From: Vectrevirus LI10P3
Strand: one strand, 5' to 3'
Sequence record: OZ035807.1
DNA: 44,534 nucleotides
The notes beneath the pieces are model-generated. The model worked only from the letters and a program-made list of their open reading frames with translations. It did not search any database and was not told the DNA's origin. The number at the start of each line of letters is the position of its first letter. Positions within the stretch are counted from its first letter, which is position 1. Positions 25,343-37,204 of the stretch are shown here, piece by piece. Both the position numbers and the translations under genes were made by a program.

Positions 25343-26342
25343 GCTTCGCAGCTTGTACAAAGACTCCGAGGTACTTGATGCAATCGAGCAAGCTACCGAC
25401 GAGAAAGGTAATGTTAATTATAATGAGATGGCACGTGTATTATCGTGTCACCCTGTGGGTAAGAAGATTACCCGCCAGTTGGCTCGATACTGGCATGGTC
25501 AATTCAAGAAGACCAAGAAGAATGGTGATTATTACCAGACCCTTCTGCAAGAAGATAAGCGTATCAAAGAAGAGCGTAAGCTCAGGACTCCTGACCGCTA
25601 CGAGGATTTGGCTATTGTACCATTGCCTGACTCGCCTCATCGAAGTGTACTGGTAATCCCTGATACTCATGCACCTTATGAGCATCCAGATACCTTAGAG
25701 TTCCTTGCAGCAGTCGCGGCACGTTACCGTCCAGATACAGTGGTTCACTTAGGAGATGAGGCAGATAAACACGCCCTCTCCTTCCATGACTCTGACCCTA
25801 ATCTGGATAGTGCTGGCATGGAGCTAGAGAAGGCTCGTGTCTTCATGCACAAGTTGCACAAGATGTTCCCTGTGATGCGCCTGTGTCATTCTAATCACGG
25901 CTCTATGCACTTCCGTAAGGCAAGCGCCAAGGGTATTCCAGTACAATATCTTCGCACCTACCGTGAAGTCTTTTTCCCAAATGGAGGTGGCGACCAGTGG
26001 GATTGGCAGCATACACATGTTCTTGAGTTGCCGAATGGTGAACAAGTGGCATTCAAGCATCAACCTGCTGGCTCTGTCCTAGCAGATGCAGCGCATGAGC
26101 GTATGAACCTTGTGTGTGGTCACTTGCACGGTAAGATGTCTGTGGAGTACGCACGTAATACACATGAACAGTATTGGGCTGTGCAAGGTGGCTGCTTAAT
26201 TGATGAGTCATCCCGTGCATTTGCCTATGGTCGTGAGTCTAAATACAAGCCAGCATTAGGTTGTGTGGTCATTCTGGAGGGTGTGCCTCACATTGTCCCG
26301 ATGCAAACCAATAGCGACAACCGTTGGATTGGCAAGATTTAG
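25335..26342 (+). CDS. calcineurin-like metallophosphoesterase
   Basis: TTG start preceded by GAAGGAGG RBS; motifs IPDTHAPYEHPD, HLGDEADKH, HSNHGSMHF match the metallophosphatase signature. Confidence 0.65.
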   Translation: MGKLRSLYKDSEVLDAIEQATDEKGNVNYNEMARVLSCHPVGKKITRQLARYWHGQFKKTKKNGDYYQTLLQEDKRIKEERKLRTPDRYEDLAIVPLPDSPHRSVLVIPDTHAPYEHPDTLEFLAAVAARYRPDTVVHLGDEADKHALSFHDSDPNLDSAGMELEKARVFMHKLHKMFPVMRLCHSNHGSMHFRKASAKGIPVQYLRTYREVFFPNGGGDQWDWQHTHVLELPNGEQVAFKHQPAGSVLADAAHERMNLVCGHLHGKMSVEYARNTHEQYWAVQGGCLIDESSRAFAYGRESKYKPALGCVVILEGVPHIVPMQTNSDNRWIGKI

Positions 26343-26361
26343 TTGACACTATAGAACAAAG
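26340..26361 (+). promoter_or_regulatory. phage RNAP promoter
   Basis: TAGTTGACACTATAGAACAAAG. Confidence 0.5.
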
Positions 26362-27121: not shown

Positions 27122-28065
27122 ACATCTTCCAATTCCTAGGTCTTCCAGAAGACCACCGCAATCATCCATTCATGCTGGTGAAGCATCGCGGTGAAGTTCC
27201 TGAGAAGAAACTTACTTTTCCATGTTATGCACAGGTGAAACGAGATGGAATATTCAGTGCTGTTGTGGTGCGTAATGATGGTGCTGTTGCCATCTTTGGT
27301 CGTACTGGTAAGAAGCTCGCAAATGTTGAATCCTTGGAAAAGACGTTTAGTGTATTTCCTGTCGGGTTGTATCTTGGTGAGTTGCAATCTATGGCTGTTG
27401 ATGTTTATCTTGAAGCTCTGTCAGGAGTGGTAAACCCTAATCGTACCGAGCCACTTGATTTCATAGGCCAGCAGATTAAAGACAACCTGTATATCGACTT
27501 CTTCGATATGTTAACCATTAAGGCATTCCATGATGGATTCACTGATGTTTCTTATCTCAAACGTTACGATGCTTTACATCGCCGCATCGGCGCTCATCTT
27601 AGCGGGTACAACGCTATCCTTCCTATTACTCCTTGCCATAATGAGCGAGAAGTTGAAGCGTTTGCGCAAGAGCAAATAGATGCAGGCCGAGAGGGTGCTG
27701 TGTTTAAACTTGACGTGGAGTATGAAAGTGGGCACAAGGGCTATCGTCAAACGAAGATCGTTCGTATGGTATCTTACGACCTCACCTGTATTGGGTGGGA
27801 GGAAGGAAAAGGTAAGTATAAAGGTAAAGTAGCTAATTTAATCTTTAAATGGAAAGGTGGTAAGTCCGTTAAGGCTATGCTGGGGCGTGGCTGGTCACAT
27901 GAGGATGCAGCACAGATGTATCACGATATTAAACACGGTGGCGAACTAAACGTCATTGGGAAAATCTTCGCTGTTAAGGCGTTACAGGAATCTAGTAAGG
28001 GAGTCCTGAGACTTCCCAAGGTTTCTGAACTTAGGTTTGATAAGGAAGTCCCTGATGTCTTCTAA
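27118..28065 (+). CDS. ATP-dependent DNA ligase
   Basis: 315 aa; adenylation motif KRDG (AQVKRDGIFSAVV); RBS GGAGGTG. Confidence 0.75.
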   Translation: MNIFQFLGLPEDHRNHPFMLVKHRGEVPEKKLTFPCYAQVKRDGIFSAVVVRNDGAVAIFGRTGKKLANVESLEKTFSVFPVGLYLGELQSMAVDVYLEALSGVVNPNRTEPLDFIGQQIKDNLYIDFFDMLTIKAFHDGFTDVSYLKRYDALHRRIGAHLSGYNAILPITPCHNEREVEAFAQEQIDAGREGAVFKLDVEYESGHKGYRQTKIVRMVSYDLTCIGWEEGKGKYKGKVANLIFKWKGGKSVKAMLGRGWSHEDAAQMYHDIKHGGELNVIGKIFAVKALQESSKGVLRLPKVSELRFDKEVPDVF

Positions 28066-28540
28066 TCCAAATTACCGAAAACCACCTCGTACACCGCCAA
28101 GACCACTTGCCTACTGTCCTTTTACTGGAAAGCTTTTCCGTAAGTTCAAAGATGGCTGGAGAGAAACAGGACTTAGCAGAAAGAGTGATGGATATTTACA
28201 GTGTAAAGTCGATGGTAAGACTGTAAGTGTTCATGTTTTAGCAATGAATATGATGGGTTATGACACTACCGGCTTTACAGTAGATCACATAAATCATATA
28301 CGCTGGGATAATAGGTTTATTAATCTACGTCTATTATCTCATAAAGATAATTGTTTAAATAGAGAGGCGATACATATAAGTAAGCTGCCGAGTGGTAACT
28401 ACAGAGCGCGATGTGGAAATGTTCATCTTGGCGTATTTGAGGATAAGTTACTTGCTCGTGGTGCTATCCTATGGTATCGCCATAGGAGATTTAATAATGT
28501 TAAATTCAATGAAGGCAACGCGTGCCGTAGAAGTAGCTGA
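28055..28540 (+). CDS. HNH homing endonuclease
   Basis: 161 aa from ATG 28055; motif VDHINHIRWDNRFINLRLLSHKDNCLN; overlaps ligase 3' end. Confidence 0.65.
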   Translation: MSSNPNYRKPPRTPPRPLAYCPFTGKLFRKFKDGWRETGLSRKSDGYLQCKVDGKTVSVHVLAMNMMGYDTTGFTVDHINHIRWDNRFINLRLLSHKDNCLNREAIHISKLPSGNYRARCGNVHLGVFEDKLLARGAILWYRHRRFNNVKFNEGNACRRSS

Positions 28541-28691
28541 AGCTATATTTGAAACTTTATCCTGTGGCATGGAAGTGCCATATACTTTACTTGCTGATGC
28601 AGAAGAACTTGGTCTTTCTGTAGAAGCTATCCAAGAGAAGGTTGACGAATTATATGGTACAGACGAAGAAGAAACCGACGATTTCATTTGA
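28497..28691 (+). CDS. hypothetical small acidic protein
   Basis: 64 aa from ATG 28497 with AGGAGA RBS; C-terminus TDEEETDDFI. Confidence 0.45.
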   Translation: MLNSMKATRAVEVAEAIFETLSCGMEVPYTLLADAEELGLSVEAIQEKVDELYGTDEEETDDFI

Positions 28692-28695
28692 AGGA

Positions 28696-28824
28696 ATGGA
28701 GATGCTTGAGATGATTCTCAAGCCTTCTTCTCCGAAGGTGACTAAGACTCATGAAGAGTTAATCGTTGATGAAGTGAAGCGTTACATCATGGATTGTGTC
28801 AGAGCACAACTGGTGGTCCAATGA
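28696..28824 (+). CDS. hypothetical small protein
   Basis: 42 aa; stop overlaps GNAT start (ATGA). Confidence 0.3.
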   Translation: MEMLEMILKPSSPKVTKTHEELIVDEVKRYIMDCVRAQLVVQ

Positions 28825-29282
28825 TACGTCCAGCTTCCTTCCTAGATATTCCTGAGATTATAAACCTTGGGAATAAATATGTGGAAGAGGAAGTCAAGGT
28901 AGTGGCCCATCACTCAGCATCATGGAATGCAGAACAAAGCGCACATAACCTTTGCGCATCTCTTAGTAGAGAAGATTTATTCCTATGGGTTGCTGTAGAT
29001 GAAGGGCGGATTGTAGGGTTCCTGTGGGCTGGCTATCACGAGTTGGCCCCTTGGACACCTGTAAGGGTTGCCTCTGACATTCTCTTTTATATTATACCAG
29101 AGAAGCGAGGAACCCTACTTGGTATGCGTCTCATCAAAGCCCTAAAGCAATGGGCTAGTGATAATGAATGCTCTGAGGTTCGCCTGTCTATCGCCTCTGG
29201 TATCAATGAAGAACGTGTCGGACGTATGTATAAGCGACTTGGCTTTGAACCGTTTGGCACTGTGTATAACCTGAAGTTCTAA
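28821..29282 (+). CDS. GNAT-family N-acetyltransferase
   Basis: 153 aa; RIVGFLWAGY and EKRGTLLGMRLIKALKQWA resemble GNAT acetyl-CoA-binding motifs; ends ...YKRLGFEPFG. Confidence 0.6.
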   Translation: MIRPASFLDIPEIINLGNKYVEEEVKVVAHHSASWNAEQSAHNLCASLSREDLFLWVAVDEGRIVGFLWAGYHELAPWTPVRVASDILFYIIPEKRGTLLGMRLIKALKQWASDNECSEVRLSIASGINEERVGRMYKRLGFEPFGTVYNLKF

Positions 29283-29291
29283 GGAGATAAC

Positions 29292-29501
29292 ATGGGTGTT
29301 GTAAAGAAAGCATTTAAGGCTATCGGTCTTGCTCAAGATGCACCACGTATTGAAGCGAAAGTGCCAGCACAGCAGCTTGAGCGTAAGCCAGAGACTGAAG
29401 CTGAAGATATTCAGATTGGTGCAGGAGATGATGATGCTACTGCATCTGCAAAAGGCAAGCGTGGCCTTGTCCGTCCGGTAGCTTCTAGCTTGAAGGTGTA
29501 A
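29292..29501 (+). CDS. hypothetical small protein upstream of portal
   Basis: 69 aa, RBS AAGGAGA. Confidence 0.5.
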   Translation: MGVVKKAFKAIGLAQDAPRIEAKVPAQQLERKPETEAEDIQIGAGDDDATASAKGKRGLVRPVASSLKV

Positions 29502-29502
29502 T

Positions 29503-31053
29503 ATGAAACAGAGCACAGATTTGGAGTATGGAGGTAAGCGGTCTAAGATACCTAAGCTATGGGAGAAATTCTCCACTAAACGTAGCTCTTTCCTTGATAG
29601 GGCGAAGCATTACTCCAAATTAACCTTGCCCTATCTGATGAATGACAAAGGTGATAACGAGACTTCGCAGAATGGATGGCAAGGTGTAGGTGCTCAGGCA
29701 ACCAACCATCTAGCCAACAAGCTAGCGCAAGTACTATTCCCTGCACAGCGTTCCTTCTTCCGTGTAGACTTAACTGCACAAGGTGAGAAGGTTCTTAATC
29801 AGCGTGGCCTGAAGAAGACAGAGCTAGCTACCATCTTTGCTCAAGTGGAAACACGGGCAATGAAAGAGTTAGAGCAACGTCAATTCCGGCCTGCTGTAGT
29901 AGAAGCATTTAAGCATCTTATTGTTGCTGGCAGCTGTATGCTATACAAGCCGAGCAAAGGTGCAATCAGTGCTATCCCAATGCATCACTACGTAGTTAAC
30001 CGTGATACCAATGGCGACCTGTTAGACATTATCTTGCTACAAGAGAAAGCCTTACGTACCTTTGACCCAGCTACACGTGCTGTAGTAGAGGTTGGCCTGA
30101 AAGGTAAGAAGTGCAAAGAAGATGACAGCGTTAAGCTGTACACACATGCTAAGTATCTTGGTGATGGATTTTGGGAACTCAAGCAATCTGCTGATGATAT
30201 CCCTGTGGGTAAGGTGAGTAAAATCAAATCAGAAAAGCTACCTTTCATCCCATTAACTTGGAAGCGAAGCTATGGTGAGGATTGGGGTCGCCCTCTTGCA
30301 GAGGATTACTCCGGTGATTTATTCGTTATCCAATTCTTATCTGAAGCGGTTGCCCGTGGTGCTGCGCTGATGGCAGATATCAAGTACCTGATTCGTCCGG
30401 GTGCTCAAACTGATGTTGACCACTTTGTTAACTCTGGCACTGGTGAGGTTATCACTGGTGTAGAAGAAGACATCCATATTGTACAGCTAGGTAAGTATGC
30501 AGACCTCACACCTATTAGCGCGGTTCTAGAGGTATACACTCGCCGTATCGGTGTTGTCTTCATGATGGAGACAATGACACGCCGTGACGCCGAACGTGTT
30601 ACTGCTGTAGAAATCCAGCGAGATGCGTTAGAGATTGAGCAGAACATGGGTGGTGTATACTCCCTCTTTGCTACCACTATGCAATCGCCAGTAGCGATGT
30701 GGGGTCTGCTGGAGGCGGGGGAGTCCTTCACTAGTGACCTAGTGGATCCTGTGATTATCACAGGTATTGAAGCTTTAGGACGCATGGCTGAGTTGGATAA
30801 ACTGGCTAACTTTGCTCAGTATATGTCACTGCCATTACAATGGCCTGAGCCTGTCCTAGCTGCTGTGAAATGGCCTGACTATATGGATTGGGTGCGTGGT
30901 CAAATCTCTGCTGAACTGCCGTTCCTTAAATCGGCTGAAGAGATAGCACAAGAACAGGAAGCACAGATGCAAGCACAGCAAGCACAGATGCTTGAAGAAG
31001 GTGTGGCTAAGGCCGTGCCGGGTGTAATTCAACAAGAACTTAAGGAGGCGTAA
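29503..31053 (+). CDS. portal / head-tail connector protein (T7 gp8-like)
   Basis: 516 aa directly upstream of scaffold and capsid; size and synteny. Confidence 0.8.
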   Translation: MKQSTDLEYGGKRSKIPKLWEKFSTKRSSFLDRAKHYSKLTLPYLMNDKGDNETSQNGWQGVGAQATNHLANKLAQVLFPAQRSFFRVDLTAQGEKVLNQRGLKKTELATIFAQVETRAMKELEQRQFRPAVVEAFKHLIVAGSCMLYKPSKGAISAIPMHHYVVNRDTNGDLLDIILLQEKALRTFDPATRAVVEVGLKGKKCKEDDSVKLYTHAKYLGDGFWELKQSADDIPVGKVSKIKSEKLPFIPLTWKRSYGEDWGRPLAEDYSGDLFVIQFLSEAVARGAALMADIKYLIRPGAQTDVDHFVNSGTGEVITGVEEDIHIVQLGKYADLTPISAVLEVYTRRIGVVFMMETMTRRDAERVTAVEIQRDALEIEQNMGGVYSLFATTMQSPVAMWGLLEAGESFTSDLVDPVIITGIEALGRMAELDKLANFAQYMSLPLQWPEPVLAAVKWPDYMDWVRGQISAELPFLKSAEEIAQEQEAQMQAQQAQMLEEGVAKAVPGVIQQELKEA

Positions 31054-31977: not shown

Positions 31978-32004
31978 GTATTTACTGGACACTATAGAAG
32001 GGAG
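31978..32004 (+). promoter_or_regulatory. phage RNAP promoter upstream of capsid gene
   Basis: GTATTTACTGGACACTATAGAAGGGAG. Confidence 0.75.
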
Positions 32005-33318: not shown

Positions 33319-34056
33319 ATGCCTGTTATTAAACAACAAAGTTACACTGGCTATACTGTCTCAGATGTAGCCTTTCAAGTGATTGATAGTAAGCTGGAGG
33401 CTGTTAACCTTTGTATGCGAGCCATTGGTCGTGAGGGTGTGGATTCTCTCGACTCAGGCGACCTTGATGCTGAAGATGCTAGCAAAATGATTGATATCGT
33501 CTCCCAACGTTTCCAATACAACAAAGGCGGTGGCTGGTGGTTCAATCGTGAACCTAACTGGCAGCTTGCACCAGACACGAACGGTGAGATTAACTTGCCT
33601 AATAACTGCCTAGCTGTATTGCAGTGCTACGCATTGGGTGAGAAGAAAGTGCCTATGACTATGCGTGCAGGTAAGCTCTACTCTACTTGGAGTCACACCT
33701 TTGATATGCGTAAGCATGTTAATGCTAATGGTATGATTCGTCTTACCTTACTCACCTTACTACCCTACGAGCATTTACCTACAAGTGTAATGCAGGCTAT
33801 TGCCTATCAAGCTGCTGTAGAGTTTATTGTGTCTAAGGATGCAGATCAGACTAAGCTAGCCACTGCGCAGCAGATAGCCACTCAGCTTCTTATGGATGTA
33901 CAATCTGAGCAAATGTCACAGAAGCGATTAAACATGCTGGTACATAACCCCACTCAGCGTCAGTTTGGTATCATGGCTGGTGGCTCTCAGAATGTACCTG
34001 CTTACTCTCATTCACCTTATGAGAGTTGGGCGCTCCGTCCGTGGGAGGATCGTTAA
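33319..34056 (+). CDS. tail tubular protein A (T7 gp11-like)
   Basis: 245 aa from ATG 33319 with AGGAGGA RBS; position after capsid. Confidence 0.7.
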   Translation: MPVIKQQSYTGYTVSDVAFQVIDSKLEAVNLCMRAIGREGVDSLDSGDLDAEDASKMIDIVSQRFQYNKGGGWWFNREPNWQLAPDTNGEINLPNNCLAVLQCYALGEKKVPMTMRAGKLYSTWSHTFDMRKHVNANGMIRLTLLTLLPYEHLPTSVMQAIAYQAAVEFIVSKDADQTKLATAQQIATQLLMDVQSEQMSQKRLNMLVHNPTQRQFGIMAGGSQNVPAYSHSPYESWALRPWEDR

Positions 34057-36458
34057 TGGAAGTACAAGGTTCATTAGGTAGACAAATCCAAGGGATTAGC
34101 CAGCAGCCGCCAGCGGTACGCTTGGATGGTCAGTGCACAGCTATGGTTAATATGATACCTGATGTAGTGAATGGTACTCAATCACGCATGGGTACAACTC
34201 ATATTGCAAAGATACTTGATGCTGGGACTGATGACATGGCTATTCATCATTATCGCAGAGGTGATGGTGATGAAGAGTATTTCTTCACGTTGAAGAAAGG
34301 ACAAGTTCCTGAGATATTTGATAAGTATGGGCGCAAATGTAATGTGACTTCACAAGATGCACCTATGACCTACCTCTCTGAGGTTGTTAATCCAAGGGAA
34401 GATGTACAATTCATGACGATAGCTGATGTTACTTTCATGCTTAATCGTAGGAAAGTAGTTAAAGCTAGTAACAGGAAGTCACCTAAAGTTGGAAACAAAG
34501 CCATTGTGTTTTGTGCGTATGGTCAATATGGTACATCTTATTCCATTGTAATTAATGGGACCAACGCTGCTAGTTTTAAAACACCGGATGGTGGAAGTGC
34601 AGACCATGTTGAACAAATTCGAACTGAACGTATCACTTCTGAATTGTACTCTAAGTTGCAGCAATGGAGCGGTGTGAGTGACTATGAAATACAAAGAGAC
34701 GGTACTAGTATATTTATCGAGAGACGGGATGGTGCTAGCTTTACAATAACAACCACCGATGGTGCAAAAGGTAAGGACTTAGTGGCTATCAAGAATAAAG
34801 TTAGCTCTACTGACCTACTCCCTTCTCGTGCGCCTGCTGGTTATAAAGTACAAGTGTGGCCTACTGGCAGCAAACCTGAGTCTCGTTACTGGCTGCAAGC
34901 TGAGCCTAAAGAGGGAAACCTTGTATCTTGGAAAGAAACAATAGCTGCCGATGTATTACTTGGGTTTGATAAAGGCACAATGCCTTATATCATTGAACGT
35001 ACAGGTATCGTAGACGGCATAGCTCAATTCAAGATAAGACAAGGCGATTGGGAAGATCGTAAAGTAGGAGATGACCTGACTAACCCTATGCCTTCTTTTA
35101 TTGATGAAGAAGTACCTCAGACAATAGGTGGGATGTTCATGGTGCAGAACCGCCTATGCTTTACAGCAGGTGAAGCTGTTATTGCTTCTCGTACATCATA
35201 CTTCTTCGATTTCTTTCGTTATACGGTTATCTCTGCATTGGCGACTGACCCATTTGATATTTTCTCAGATGCTAGTGAAGTCTACCAGCTAAAACATGCA
35301 GTGACCTTAGATGGCGCTACCGTGTTGTTCTCTGATAAGTCACAATTCATACTGCCAGGAGATAAGCCTTTAGAGAAGTCAAATGCATTGCTTAAGCCTG
35401 TTACAACATTTGAAGTGAACAATAAAGTGAAGCCAGTAGTAACTGGTGAATCGGTAATGTTTGCCACTAATGATGGTTCTTACTCTGGTGTACGAGAGTT
35501 CTATACAGACTCTTATAGTGACACTAAGAAGGCACAAGCAATCACAAGTCATGTGAATAAACTCATCGAAGGTAACATTACCAACATGGCAGCAAGCACC
35601 AATGTCAACAGGTTACTTGTCACTACCGATAAGTATCGTAACATAATCTACTGCTACGATTGGTTATGGCAAGGAACAGACCGTGTACAATCAGCATGGC
35701 ATGTGTGGAAGTGGCCTATAGGTACAAAGGTGCGAGGTATGTTTTATTCTGGCGAATTACTTTATCTGCTCCTTGAGAGAGGCAATGGTGTCTATCTGGA
35801 GAAGATGGATATGGGTGATGCATTAACCTATGGTTTAAATGATCGCATCCGAATGGATAGACAGGCAGAGTTAATCTTCCAGCATTTCAAAGCAGAAGAT
35901 GAATGGGTATCTGAACCACTCCCTTGGGTTCCTACTAACCCAGAACTTTTAGATTGCATCTTAATCGAGGGTTGGGATTCATATATTGGTGGTTCTTTCC
36001 TATTCAAATACAACCCCGGTGATAACACCTTGTCTACAACCTTTGATATGCATGATGATAGCCACGTAAAAGCGAAGGTTATTGTTGGTCAGATTTACCC
36101 TCAAGAGTTTGAACCAACACCTGTAGTTATCAGAGATAGGCAAGACCGTGTATCCTATATTGATGTACCTGTTGTGGGATTAGTTCACCTTAATCTTGAT
36201 ATGTATCCTGATTTCTCCGTGGAGGTTAAGAATGTGAAGAGTGGTAAAGTACGCAGGGTGCTAGCGTCAAACCGTATAGGTGGTGCTCTCAACAATACAG
36301 TAGGTTATGTTGAACCAAGAGAAGGTGTCTTCAGATTCCCACTGAGAGCTAAGAGTACGGATGCTGTTTATCGTATTATTGTAGAATCACCTCACACATT
36401 CCAGCTTCGTGATATTGAGTGGGAAGGGAGCTACAATCCAACCAAAAGGAGGGTCTAA
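34056..36458 (+). CDS. tail tubular protein B (T7 gp12-like)
   Basis: 800 aa; N-terminal GISQQP motif shared with T7 gp12 as I recall it; start overlaps upstream stop (TAATG). Confidence 0.8.
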   Translation: MEVQGSLGRQIQGISQQPPAVRLDGQCTAMVNMIPDVVNGTQSRMGTTHIAKILDAGTDDMAIHHYRRGDGDEEYFFTLKKGQVPEIFDKYGRKCNVTSQDAPMTYLSEVVNPREDVQFMTIADVTFMLNRRKVVKASNRKSPKVGNKAIVFCAYGQYGTSYSIVINGTNAASFKTPDGGSADHVEQIRTERITSELYSKLQQWSGVSDYEIQRDGTSIFIERRDGASFTITTTDGAKGKDLVAIKNKVSSTDLLPSRAPAGYKVQVWPTGSKPESRYWLQAEPKEGNLVSWKETIAADVLLGFDKGTMPYIIERTGIVDGIAQFKIRQGDWEDRKVGDDLTNPMPSFIDEEVPQTIGGMFMVQNRLCFTAGEAVIASRTSYFFDFFRYTVISALATDPFDIFSDASEVYQLKHAVTLDGATVLFSDKSQFILPGDKPLEKSNALLKPVTTFEVNNKVKPVVTGESVMFATNDGSYSGVREFYTDSYSDTKKAQAITSHVNKLIEGNITNMAASTNVNRLLVTTDKYRNIIYCYDWLWQGTDRVQSAWHVWKWPIGTKVRGMFYSGELLYLLLERGNGVYLEKMDMGDALTYGLNDRIRMDRQAELIFQHFKAEDEWVSEPLPWVPTNPELLDCILIEGWDSYIGGSFLFKYNPGDNTLSTTFDMHDDSHVKAKVIVGQIYPQEFEPTPVVIRDRQDRVSYIDVPVVGLVHLNLDMYPDFSVEVKNVKSGKVRRVLASNRIGGALNNTVGYVEPREGVFRFPLRAKSTDAVYRIIVESPHTFQLRDIEWEGSYNPTKRRV

Positions 36459-37204
36459 TGGCTATAGGTTCAGCCGTTATGGCTGGTATGTCTTCTATTG
36501 GTAGTATGTTTGCAGGTAGCGGTGCAGCAGCCGCTGTTGGTGGTACTGCCGCAGCAGCAGGAGGGACAGCCGCCGCAGGTGGCGGAGGTTTGCTTGGCTC
36601 CCTTGGTAGTTTCTTAGGAGGTTCTTCTGCTGGCTTCTCTAATGCAGGACTGCTTAGTGCAGGTATGCAAGGTCTTGGTCTTCTAGGCAATCTTTTTGGT
36701 GGAAGTGATGAAGCCAAAGCTATGAAGAAAGCTCAGGAGGAGCAATGGCGGCAGCAGTTAATTGCTACACAAGAAGCATATAAGACAGTAACAGATGCAG
36801 AACGCTCTGCTGCTAAACAGTATCATGCAGATGCAATCAGTAATCAGGCTTCACTGCTACAGCAAAGAGCACAGGTTGCATTACTTGCTGGTGCTACTGG
36901 TACTGGTGGTAACTCTGTGTCTTCTATGCTGAATGACTTAGCAGCAGAAGGCGGAAGGAACCAGAGTACAATTATCGATAACTATGAGAATCAGAAGATT
37001 AACTTCACCAACCAGCTTAAGTCCATCCAACGGGGTGGTCAGATGCAGATGCGTGAGTTTAAGAAACCTTCTGCCGTGAGCACCTTGGTGCAAGGTATAC
37101 CGAGTCTGGCATCTGCCTATGTAACAGGTAGTAAGTCCGGCATGGCTTTAGGTAAAGCTTTAACTGATTCTCGTACATATTCATCTGGAACAAGAGGTAT
37201 TTAA
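36458..37204 (+). CDS. internal virion protein (small, Gly/Ala-rich)
   Basis: 248 aa from ATG 36458 with AGGAGGG RBS; Gly/Ala-rich N-terminal half; first of three ejection-protein genes. Confidence 0.6.
   Translation: MAIGSAVMAGMSSIGSMFAGSGAAAAVGGTAAAAGGTAAAGGGGLLGSLGSFLGGSSAGFSNAGLLSAGMQGLGLLGNLFGGSDEAKAMKKAQEEQWRQQLIATQEAYKTVTDAERSAAKQYHADAISNQASLLQQRAQVALLAGATGTGGNSVSSMLNDLAAEGGRNQSTIIDNYENQKINFTNQLKSIQRGGQMQMREFKKPSAVSTLVQGIPSLASAYVTGSKSGMALGKALTDSRTYSSGTRGI

What the first reader, a model, noticed from the sequence alone, without database searches (positions are those of the whole stretch)
28696..29282. GNAT acetyltransferase translationally coupled to a small ORF just before the structural module
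The 153-aa GNAT-like protein starts at an ATG overlapping the stop of a 42-aa ORF (ATGA). Phage GNATs can acetylate host proteins, antibiotics, nucleotides or toxins, and the target here is unknown. I do not recall T7 having a GNAT here; it may be an anti-defence or host-modifying function.
Basis: partly seen in the sequence, partly recalled or inferred. Interest (0 to 1): 0.5.

Follow-up and report, generated by a model that had tools for sequence, protein, structure and literature searches.

The report
Conserved podophage acetyltransferase with small partner
This is the already-annotated GNAT acetyltransferase gene of K1E/SP6-like phages, made together with a conserved 56-residue partner protein just before the portal gene; it is a core late gene of still untested function, more likely tied to virion assembly or host takeover than to anti-defence.

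Summary
A 153-aa GNAT ORF (28821..29282) starts at an ATG that overlaps the TGA of an upstream small ORF (ATGA). The window is a Vectrevirus (K1E/K1-5/SP6-like), not T7. The GNAT is 96-100% identical to proteins already deposited as 'acetyltransferase' (K1E gp27, SP6 gp28; PHROG 1249).

One correction: the upstream ORF is most likely 56 aa (ATG 28654; K1E gp26/SP6 gp27), not 42 aa. Its stop-start overlap with the GNAT is kept in nearly all of about 40 related loci, down to 33% identity. It is a phage-only two-helix protein with no informative fold match.

The GNAT fold and the acetyl-CoA loop (R96, G97) are well conserved, but no curated subfamily fits.

The genomic slot is that of T7 gene 7, directly before a gp7.3 homologue and the portal. 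The slot is shared with Rac of phiKMV phages. More distant members of the same PHROG sit in the T7 gene 13 (IVP-A) slot, after the nozzle gene.

Best reading (about 0.4): a non-structural, late-expressed acetyltransferase acting on a conserved phage-assembly target. The main rival is Rac-like host takeover. Anti-defence, antibiotic resistance and toxin-antitoxin readings find little support.

Ordinary, already-known gene; function untested.

The parts
28821..29282 (+). GNAT acetyltransferase gene (153 aa), orthologue of K1E gp27 / SP6 gp28
   Evidence: ORF. Pfam PF00583 E 1.2e-9. PHROG 1249 E 1e-53. 96% identical to K1E gp27, 76% to SP6 gp28, and 100% to several deposited Vectrevirus proteins. 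AlphaFold2 pLDDT 90 with a GNAT topology. Foldseek against PDB finds GNATs at TMq 0.7-0.8.
28654..28824 (+). Small partner gene, most likely 56 aa (K1E gp26 / SP6 gp27).
28821..28824 (+). ATGA stop-start overlap (translational coupling site)
   Evidence: Sequence. The overlap is conserved in nearly all of about 40 related loci. Upstream there is only a weak GGTGG Shine-Dalgarno-like element, and none in the Colwellvirinae relatives.
28497..28691 (+). gp25-like small ORF (64 aa) whose 3' end overlaps the partner gene by 38 nt in another frame
   Evidence: PHROG 5860 E 3e-37. Both reading frames are conserved across relatives.
29292..29501 (+). gp7.3 homologue (69 aa), a small ejected virion protein, directly downstream of the GNAT
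   Evidence: PHROG 1320 E 8.7e-12. T7 gp7.3 belongs to PHROG 1320 at E 1e-29. hhalign against the Rac-side downstream proteins gives probability 74%.
29503..31053 (+). Portal (head-tail connector) gene
   Evidence: ORF. The syntenic gene is annotated as portal or head-tail adaptor in K1E, SP6 and AAPEc6.
26337..26357 (+). Phage-RNAP promoter (ATTTAGTTGACACTATAGAAC), the last one upstream of the cassette
   Evidence: CACTATAGAA occurs 12 times in the window against 0.9 expected. The next copy is at 31990, before the capsid gene, so the kinase, ligase, HNH, gp25, gp26, GNAT, gp7.3-like, portal and scaffold genes share a transcription unit.

Best explanation
The region encodes the K1E gp27 / SP6 gp28 acetyltransferase. 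It is an apparently active GNAT enzyme.

How it is made:
- Its translation is coupled, through an ATGA stop-start overlap, to a conserved 56-aa two-helix partner protein (K1E gp26).
- Both genes are transcribed by the phage RNA polymerase in one unit with a gp7.3-like ejected protein, the portal and the scaffold.

Where the family sits:
- Across podoviruses this GNAT family (PHROG 1249) always lies inside the virion-assembly module.
- In some phages it sits in the slot of T7 gene 7, before gp7.3 and the portal, as here.
- In others it sits in the slot of T7 gene 13 (IVP-A, a non-structural factor needed for morphogenesis), between the nozzle gene and the internal virion proteins.

Inferred mechanism: it is a non-structural late protein that uses acetyl-CoA to modify a conserved, phage-intrinsic target during particle assembly. 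The target is most plausibly one of the small ejected or internal virion proteins encoded next to it. The partner would act as a stoichiometric adaptor or regulator.

Shown here: gene identity, fold, cofactor-loop conservation, coupling, synteny and transcription-unit layout. Inferred: enzymatic activity, the target and the role of the partner.
For: Identity: 96-100% identity to deposited 'acetyltransferase' genes, and PHROG 1249 at E 1e-53.

Fold: AlphaFold2 pLDDT 90 with GNAT topology, and Foldseek matches to GNATs.

Cofactor loop and other core residues, measured over 141 representatives that are at most 50% identical to each other:
- R96 98%, G97 87%, Y/F90 99%, D/E86 91%
- N-terminal residues R3 94%, D9 96%, E23 89%

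Coupling and partner: the overlap is conserved in nearly all of about 40 loci, and the partner is found upstream in the related loci that include the upstream DNA, weakly in the three most divergent.

Context here: no phage promoter lies between the GNAT and the portal, and the downstream gene is a gp7.3 homologue.

Context elsewhere:
- Four of five sampled remote members lie in a structural-gene block. One (L071) sits directly between a Pfam-identified nozzle gene and a PHROG 'internal virion protein'. The two scanned (L070, L071) belong to PHROG 1249 (E 5e-31 and 9e-36).
- SIO1 gp26.2, which Hardies et al. place in the IVP-A slot as an acetyltransferase-family gene, is hit by the window GNAT at 3e-8 (PMC4819975).
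- The window has no separate gene between the nozzle and the first internal virion protein.
- According to PMC4819975, IVP-A is required for morphogenesis but is not kept in the virion.
Against: - No experiment on any PHROG 1249 member was found, and no acetylated virion protein is documented.
- Gene position in T7-like genomes partly reflects timing of expression rather than function.
- The only characterised GNAT in this genomic slot, Rac of LUZ19, acts on the host by triggering RNA polymerase alpha cleavage (PMC7552054).
- Homology to T7 gp13 is only suggestive in my test: hhalign probability 35%, P 4e-4.
- The nearest solved structures by sequence are small-amine acetyltransferases (Dpa, SSAT, PAT).
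- The canonical central glycine of motif A is missing: the loop reads RGTLLG.
Confidence: 0.4

Rival explanations
1. Rac-like host takeover. The GNAT acetylates one or more host proteins in mid to late infection to shut down host functions. LUZ19 gp28 (Rac) does this: it triggers cleavage of the host RNA polymerase alpha subunit.
For: Same genomic slot and local architecture in LUZ19: a small overlapping ORF, then the GNAT, then a small virion protein, then portal and scaffold.

Profile similarity between the two families:
- hhalign of the window family against the Rac family gives probability 96%, E 2.7e-9.
- Rac's second-best PHROG is 1249, at E 5e-4.

Rac needs its acetyl-CoA site and is toxic to the host (PMC7552054).
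Against: - No pairwise similarity by BLASTP (E 18).
- The window GNAT does not hit PHROG 3986 at E 0.01 or better.
- The profile match may be no more than generic GNAT similarity.
- The Rac paper reports that the effect is genus-specific: LKA1 carries a GNAT in the same slot but leaves alpha intact.
- Acceptor-side residues are conserved across phages of unrelated hosts.
- The upstream partner is not detectably homologous to LUZ19 gp27: there is no HMM hit and hhalign gives probability 12%.
Confidence: 0.25
2. Small-amine acetyltransferase. The enzyme N-acetylates a universal small metabolite, such as a polyamine or diamine or an amino-acid analogue. This would adjust free polyamine levels during DNA packaging or replication, or detoxify a compound.
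For: The nearest solved relatives, by sequence and by fold, are:
- Dpa polyamine acetyltransferase (profile E 7.5e-5)
- SSAT1/2 and thialysine acetyltransferase
- PAT, BAR and ArsN

The best NCBIfam partial hits are ArsN1 and AAC(6'). Phages are known to encode active spermidine acetyltransferases (PMC9992855). A universal metabolite would explain why the acceptor-side residues are conserved across hosts.
Against: - All matches are weak: 11.5-28 bits against NCBIfam cut-offs of 86-569, and PDB E-values of 1e-5 or worse.
- Nearest-neighbour transfer of function is unreliable within the GNAT superfamily.
- The phage spermidine acetyltransferases confirmed in PMC9992855 came from other phage types (two Erwinia phages, SPBc2, Goslar, known prophages and others), and no SP6-like phage is among the candidates named in the passages read.
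- It does not explain the strict placement within assembly modules, or the coupled partner.
Confidence: 0.12
3. Anti-defence or host-range accessory function. The GNAT would inactivate a host immune protein or a toxin, as the acetyltransferase AcrVA5 does with Cas12a (that example is from my own knowledge).
For: Phage GNATs can interact with defence. A review reports that escape mutants to a lanthipeptide anti-phage defence carry mutated GNATs (PMC12360287). The positional counterpart in T7, gene 7, is annotated 'host range'.
Against: - It is a core late gene, conserved across Molineuxvirinae, Colwellvirinae and beyond. It is not in the variable early region, where K1E's ocr-like anti-restriction gene sits.
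- The family has 1228 cluster representatives at E 1e-10 or better, with acceptor-side residues conserved.
- There is no significant PADLOC similarity.
Confidence: 0.08
4. A toxin-antitoxin-like pair: the small upstream protein would be an antitoxin that neutralises a tRNA-acetylating GNAT toxin, as in TacA/TacT or AtaR/AtaT.
For: The architecture resembles type II GNAT toxin-antitoxin modules: a small upstream gene overlapping the start of a GNAT gene of about 150 aa.
Against: - The small protein has no Pfam or NCBIfam hit, so no DUF1778 or ribbon-helix-helix domain.
- The family occurs only on phage-sized contigs.
- Members of the same GNAT PHROG in other podoviruses lack the partner altogether.
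Confidence: 0.02

Closest known systems
K1E gp27 / K1-5 gp27 / SP6 gp28 'acetyltransferase' (PHROG 1249)
   Same: Orthologue. It is 96% (K1E), 86% (K1-5) and 76% (SP6) identical, and 100% identical to several deposited Vectrevirus proteins. The flanking genes and the ATGA overlap are the same.
   Different: Nothing substantive. The only local difference in this window is an HNH endonuclease inserted upstream, between the ligase and gp25.
Rac (LUZ19 gp28, PHROG 3986), the phiKMV-type GNAT that triggers cleavage of host RNA polymerase alpha (PMC7552054)
   Same: GNAT fold. Same slot at the end of the replication genes, directly before a small virion protein and the portal. An upstream small ORF overlaps its start. 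Profile-profile similarity is 96% probability.
   Different: It belongs to a different PHROG, with no BLASTP similarity. Its upstream partner is not detectably homologous. Its activity is reported as genus-specific.
T7 gp13 (IVP-A, DUF2833, PHROG 308), a non-structural factor needed for morphogenesis
   Same: Hardies et al. report that IVP-A and the genes in its slot in phiRIO-1-like phages match acetyltransferases (PMC4819975). Other PHROG 1249 members occupy that slot. The window has no separate IVP-A gene. hhalign gives a collinear alignment over 121 columns.
   Different: The similarity is weak here (probability 35%, P 4e-4). The gp13 alignment lacks the R-G cofactor loop. The genomic slot differs from that in the window.
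T7 gene 7 protein ('host range', PHROG 2746)
   Same: Identical slot, immediately before gp7.3. Weak collinear profile similarity to the Rac-type GNATs (probability 67%, P 5e-5) and to the broad family profile (probability 42%).
   Different: No significant direct similarity to the window GNAT family. The motif-A region is shortened by a three-residue gap in the Berlinvirus and Eapunavirus sequences.
Small-amine GNATs: Dpa (8a9o), SSAT1/2, and the phosphinothricin, arsinothricin and methionine-sulfoximine acetyltransferases
   Same: They are the best solved-structure matches by sequence and by fold, at TMq 0.7-0.8.
   Different: Identity is only 15-24%. NCBIfam scores are far below the curated cut-offs. 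They are cellular enzymes with no assembly-module context and no coupled partner.

Membership tests
GNAT superfamily (Pfam PF00583 Acetyltransf_1) | Profile score above the curated gathering threshold | tested here: met
   38.9 bits against a cut-off of 20.7. PF13508 scores 36.3 against 27.
GNAT superfamily (Pfam PF00583 Acetyltransf_1) | Mixed alpha/beta GNAT fold: beta1, alpha1, alpha2, beta2-4, alpha3, beta5, alpha4, beta6-7 | tested here: met
   AlphaFold2 pLDDT 90 with the secondary-structure elements in that order. 835 PDB matches at E 1e-3 or better; the 50 best listed are almost all GNATs.
GNAT superfamily (Pfam PF00583 Acetyltransf_1) | Acetyl-CoA pyrophosphate-binding loop, motif A: Q/R-x-x-G-x-G/A | tested here: inconclusive
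   The loop reads R96-G97-T-L-L-G101. R96 is 98% and G97 87% conserved over 141 representatives, but the central glycine of the canonical motif is replaced.
GNAT superfamily (Pfam PF00583 Acetyltransf_1) | Acetyl-CoA-dependent acyl transfer | not testable with these tools
   This needs a biochemical assay.
SP6 gp28 / K1E gp27 orthologous group (PHROG 1249) | High-scoring profile match together with conserved synteny | tested here: met
   PHROG 1249 E 1e-53. 96% identical to K1E gp27. The gene order ligase, small ORFs, GNAT, gp7.3-like, portal is the same.
Rac family (LUZ19 gp28, PHROG 3986) | Sequence membership in the Rac family | tested here: not met
   BLASTP E 18. PHROG 3986 is not among the window GNAT's hits at E 0.01 or better. 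Only superfamily-level profile similarity is seen.
Rac family (LUZ19 gp28, PHROG 3986) | Genomic slot directly upstream of the first small virion protein and the portal | tested here: met
Rac family (LUZ19 gp28, PHROG 3986) | Induces cleavage of the host RNA polymerase alpha subunit | not testable with these tools
   An experimental phenotype (PMC7552054).
IVP-A / T7 gp13 (DUF2833, PHROG 308) | Sequence or profile homology to gp13 | tested here: inconclusive
   hhalign of the gp13 family against the broad family profile gives probability 35%, P 4e-4, collinear over 121 columns. gp13 shows no GNAT PHROG hit. Hardies et al. report an HHpred match to acetyltransferases (PMC4819975).
IVP-A / T7 gp13 (DUF2833, PHROG 308) | Gene located between the nozzle (tubular tail B) gene and IVP-B | tested here: not met
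   In the window the nozzle ORF (34026..36458) is followed directly by the internal virion protein ORF (36419..37204). The GNAT lies upstream of the portal. Other PHROG 1249 members do occupy the IVP-A slot.
GNAT toxin / ribbon-helix-helix antitoxin modules (TacAT, AtaRT, KacAT) | Upstream antitoxin with a ribbon-helix-helix / DUF1778 domain | tested here: not met
Curated resistance or metabolic GNATs (AAC(6'), ArsN1, RimI, MshD) | NCBIfam score above the curated cut-off | tested here: not met
   Best scores are 11.5-28 bits against cut-offs of 86-569.

The most novel reading that the evidence does not exclude
The GNAT and its 56-aa partner may be the SP6/K1E-group version of one ancestral podovirus assembly enzyme. 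Its descendants would include T7 gene 13 (IVP-A), T7 gene 7 ('host range') and Rac. It would acetylate the small ejected proteins encoded next to it. The gp7.3-like proteins compared here all begin Met-Gly, Met-Ser, Met-Ala or Met-Thr. That would make an enzymatic post-translational modification a conserved step in building the podovirus DNA-ejection apparatus.
Probability: 0.15. Interest if true: 0.6.

Novelty: already known. Interest (0 to 1): 0.3.

Why it matters
The gene itself is ordinary: proteins identical to it are already deposited as 'GNAT family N-acetyltransferase'.

It matters only as a pointer to an open question. A well-conserved, apparently active acetyltransferase family (1228 cluster representatives at E 1e-10 or better) sits inside the assembly modules of many podoviruses, including therapeutic K1 and Klebsiella phages. 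Its substrate has never been identified.

The only studied gene in the same slot is Rac, which acts on the host. T7's counterparts, gp7 and gp13, have genetic phenotypes (host range and morphogenesis) but no known mechanism.

A deletion plus mass spectrometry in K1E, K1-5 or SP6 would settle whether podovirus virion proteins are enzymatically acetylated.

Tried and rejected
- **Aminoglycoside, phosphinothricin, arsinothricin or RimI assignment.** Rejected as membership: NCBIfam scores are far below the cut-offs.
- **Defence-system relation.** PADLOC gives one insignificant hit, E 0.015.
- **Direct homology to Rac.** BLASTP finds nothing. A large-database search with Rac returned only one close cluster, and a viral-contig scan returned only close relatives. 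I therefore built the Rac profile from tblastn hits.
- **Homology of the partner to LUZ19 gp27.** Not established: hhalign gives probability 12% and the HMM finds no hit.
- **The first search for related loci attempt**, using an alignment that included Rac, failed for lack of a conserved stretch.
- **Literature.** Searches for experiments on SP6 gp28 or K1E gp27, for acetylated podovirus virion proteins, and for the T7 gp7 mechanism found nothing specific.
- **The hairpin at 28704-28723**, flagged as terminator-like, lies inside the coding sequence, is followed by a weak T tract, and is kept only in close relatives. I treat it as incidental.

Full report
**What is in the sequence**

The ORF 28821..29282 (153 aa) begins with an ATG whose last two bases, plus the next A, form the TGA stop (28822-28824) of an upstream ORF in another frame. 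Pfam places the 153-aa protein in the GNAT family: Acetyltransf_1 E 1.2e-9, 38.9 bits against a cut-off of 20.7, and Acetyltransf_7 at 36.3 bits against 27.

**Which phage this is**

The window is not T7. It is a near-complete genome of a Vectrevirus (K1E/K1-5 group, Molineuxvirinae, SP6-like). It is 97-98% identical over this region to many deposited coliphages.

The GNAT is 100% identical to proteins of phages KMB14, ULINTec7 and T205P5. It is 96% identical to K1E gp27, 86% to K1-5 and 76% to SP6 gp28. Many of these records, including K1E, K1-5 and SP6, annotate it as '(N-)acetyltransferase'. It falls in PHROG 1249 at E 1e-53. As a feature, the gene is already known.

**The small upstream ORF**

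The 42-aa reading starts at ATG 28696. K1E gp26 and SP6 gp27 are annotated at 56-57 aa, and in the window the corresponding ATG is at 28654.

Several lines favour the longer form:
- The 42-aa product covers only positions 15-57 of the PHROG 6507 profile.
- The upstream ATG is conserved, and in several relatives it is preceded by GGAGGA.
- In the two loci that have lost it (L024, L033), an ATG or GTG appears two codons downstream.
- The 28696 ATG is TGG in SP6, TAT in L031 and TAC in L050.
- The conserved motif KKxxI..E lies upstream of the 42-aa start, and it is present in distant homologues whose N-terminal regions overlap no other gene.

The 56-aa gene overlaps the 3' end of the preceding gp25-like ORF (28497..28691) by 38 nt in a different frame.

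**Is the coupling real?**

I fetched 42 related viral loci, with GNAT identity ranging from 100% down to 33%. Nearly all of the roughly 40 with an intact upstream region have a small ORF whose stop overlaps the GNAT start by 4, 1 or 8 nt.

An HMM of the small protein finds it immediately upstream of the GNAT in the related loci that include the upstream DNA. Most score between E 1e-15 and 1e-31. The three most divergent are weak: L039 at 5e-5, and L041 and L044 at 0.016.

The Shine-Dalgarno element before the GNAT ATG is weak (GGTGG) and is absent in the Colwellvirinae relatives. That fits termination-reinitiation coupling.

**The enzyme**

AlphaFold2 gives a confident GNAT fold (pLDDT 90, pTM 0.86). 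Foldseek against PDB returns hundreds of matches; the best listed are almost all GNATs, at TMq 0.7-0.8, and no subfamily stands out. They include phosphinothricin/BAR/ArsN enzymes, Naa60, Dpa and SSAT.

Sequence and profile searches of PDB give weak best hits: a Brucella GNAT (3e-5), Dpa polyamine acetyltransferase (7.5e-5) and SSAT2. NCBIfam equivalogs such as ArsN1, AAC(6'), RimI and MshD score 11.5-28 bits against cut-offs of 86-569.

An exhaustive profile search finds 1228 cluster representatives at E 1e-10 or better. Over 141 of them, the most conserved residues fall into two groups:
- the beta4-alpha3 cofactor loop and its surroundings: R96 98%, G97 87%, P93, Y/F90, D/E86;
- residues in beta1 and alpha1: R3 94%, D9 96%, E23 89%.

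This pattern suggests a retained enzymatic function and a conserved acceptor. The central glycine of the canonical Q/R-x-x-G-x-G/A motif is replaced; the loop reads RGTLLG.

**Genomic context**

The consensus CACTATAGAA of the phage promoters occurs 12 times in the window, against 0.9 expected. The last copy before the cassette is at 26347 and the next is at 31990, before the capsid gene. The GNAT is therefore co-transcribed with the ligase, an HNH endonuclease, gp25, gp26, a 69-aa protein, the portal and the scaffold.

The 69-aa protein is a homologue of T7 gp7.3: it hits PHROG 1320 at E 8.7e-12, and T7 gp7.3 hits the same PHROG at 1e-29. In T7, gp7.3 is a small virion protein sitting in the portal-tail channel (PMC11784390).

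The order ligase, small ORFs, overlapping small ORF, GNAT, small gp7.3-like gene, portal, scaffold is kept in SP6, Era103, uligo and phi-A318.

**Relation to Rac**

LUZ19 has the same architecture: gp27 overlaps gp28, followed by gp29 (a virion protein), the portal and the scaffold. Gp28 is Rac, a GNAT that triggers cleavage of the Pseudomonas RNA polymerase alpha subunit. It needs its acetyl-CoA site, and the effect is reported as genus-specific (PMC7552054).

The window GNAT and Rac show no BLASTP similarity and fall in different PHROGs. However, Rac's second-best PHROG is 1249 (E 5e-4). Profile-profile comparison gives probability 96%, E 2.7e-9, which may be no more than superfamily-level similarity. 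The upstream partners are not demonstrably homologous (probability 12%, no HMM hit). The downstream small proteins are moderately similar (probability 74%).

Rac-type GNATs also occur in T7-like Ghunavirus phages, between gp6.7 and gp7.3. In phiPsa17 that gene is labelled gp7, and it is not among the virion proteins named as detected in the passages read (PMC4517105).

**Relation to T7 genes 7 and 13**

T7 gene 7 ('host range') occupies this very slot. A small gp7 family profile aligns collinearly with the Rac-type GNATs (probability 67%, P 5e-5) and more weakly with the broad family profile (probability 42%). It also hits PHROG 3986 at E 0.025. This is suggestive only.

More telling is the position of remote members. 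Four of five sampled members of the window's family are not before the portal. They lie in a structural-gene block: in L071 directly between a Pfam-identified nozzle gene and a PHROG 'internal virion protein', and in L072 in the same gene order. The two that were scanned (L070, L071) belong to PHROG 1249, at E 5e-31 and 9e-36.

That is the slot of T7 gene 13 (IVP-A). Hardies et al. described this position: phiRIO-1-like phages carry a non-structural gene there that matches acetyltransferases, T7 IVP-A also matches, and IVP-A is required for morphogenesis but not retained in virions (PMC4819975). SIO1 gp26.2, one of their examples, is hit by the window GNAT at 3e-8.

The window has no gene between the nozzle and the first internal virion protein. 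My own test of the gp13 family against the broad profile is collinear over 121 columns but weak (probability 35%, P 4e-4).

**Interpretation**

The family is a core, late, assembly-module gene of many podoviruses, with a conserved cofactor loop and conserved acceptor-side residues regardless of host.

I therefore favour, at about 0.4, a non-structural acetyltransferase acting on a conserved phage-intrinsic target during assembly. Plausible targets are the adjacent small ejected or internal proteins. The gp7.3-like proteins compared here all begin Met-Gly, Met-Ser, Met-Ala or Met-Thr, which is compatible with N-terminal acetylation after methionine removal. That is weak evidence.

The rivals, in order:
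- **Rac-like host takeover (about 0.25).** It rests on the only experimental precedent in this slot.
- **Small-amine acetyltransferase (about 0.12).** It rests on the weak nearest-structure hits and on known phage spermidine acetyltransferases in other phage types (PMC9992855).
- **Anti-defence (about 0.08).** It fits poorly with a core late gene, and PADLOC gives no significant hit.
- **Toxin-antitoxin (about 0.02).** It is contradicted by the partner's lack of an antitoxin fold and by partner-less members of the family.

**Verdict**

The GNAT call is right. The gene is already annotated and common, so it is not novel.

The aspects I found no description of in the papers searched are modest:
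- the strict conservation of the coupled partner;
- the fact that one PHROG occupies both the gene 7 slot and the gene 13 slot.

The function remains experimentally open.

Noticed in passing
window 28037..28540 (+): An HNH endonuclease ORF (Pfam HNH_3, E 8e-9) lies between the ligase gene, whose 3' end it overlaps, and gp25. Most Vectrevirus relatives lack it: their match to this region begins about 105-110 bases into the query. It looks like a mobile homing-endonuclease insertion.
   Followed up: partly
window 28704..28723 (+): A perfect 8-bp hairpin (GCTTGAGATGATTCTCAAGC) followed by CTTCTTCTCC lies inside the small partner ORF and is flagged as terminator-like. It is kept, with loop changes, in close Vectrevirus relatives but not in SP6. 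It is probably incidental, or a weak attenuator or translational pause site.
   Followed up: partly
window 28654..28691 (+): The gp25-like ORF and the 56-aa partner ORF overlap by 38 nt in different frames, and both protein sequences are conserved. In several relatives the partner's Shine-Dalgarno sequence (GGAGGA) is built from the Glu-Glu codons of gp25. In this window it is weakened to GACGAA.
   Followed up: partly
L065 831..1232 (T7 gene 7): T7 gp7 ('host range') sits in the same slot as the GNAT. As a five-member family profile it aligns collinearly with the Rac-type GNATs (hhalign probability 67%, P 5e-5) and hits PHROG 3986 at E 0.025. It may be a degenerate GNAT relative.
   Followed up: partly
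L071 7982..9778: This podovirus contig carries a PHROG 1249 GNAT in the IVP-A slot. A 598-aa protein in the same block of large genes downstream of the nozzle and the GNAT has an ART-PolyVal (ADP-ribosyltransferase-like) Pfam domain.
   Followed up: no
proteins P0158, P0161, P0168, P0181: Representatives of 318-385 aa match the GNAT family profile in two separate stretches. These look like tandem double-GNAT proteins related to this phage family. Their context was not examined.
   Followed up: no
L005 40199..40777 (K1E genes 41 and 42): Two small K1E proteins (92 and 95 aa) are annotated 'acetyl-CoA acetyltransferase', which seems unlikely for proteins of that size. The equivalent genes in the window were not examined.
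   Followed up: no
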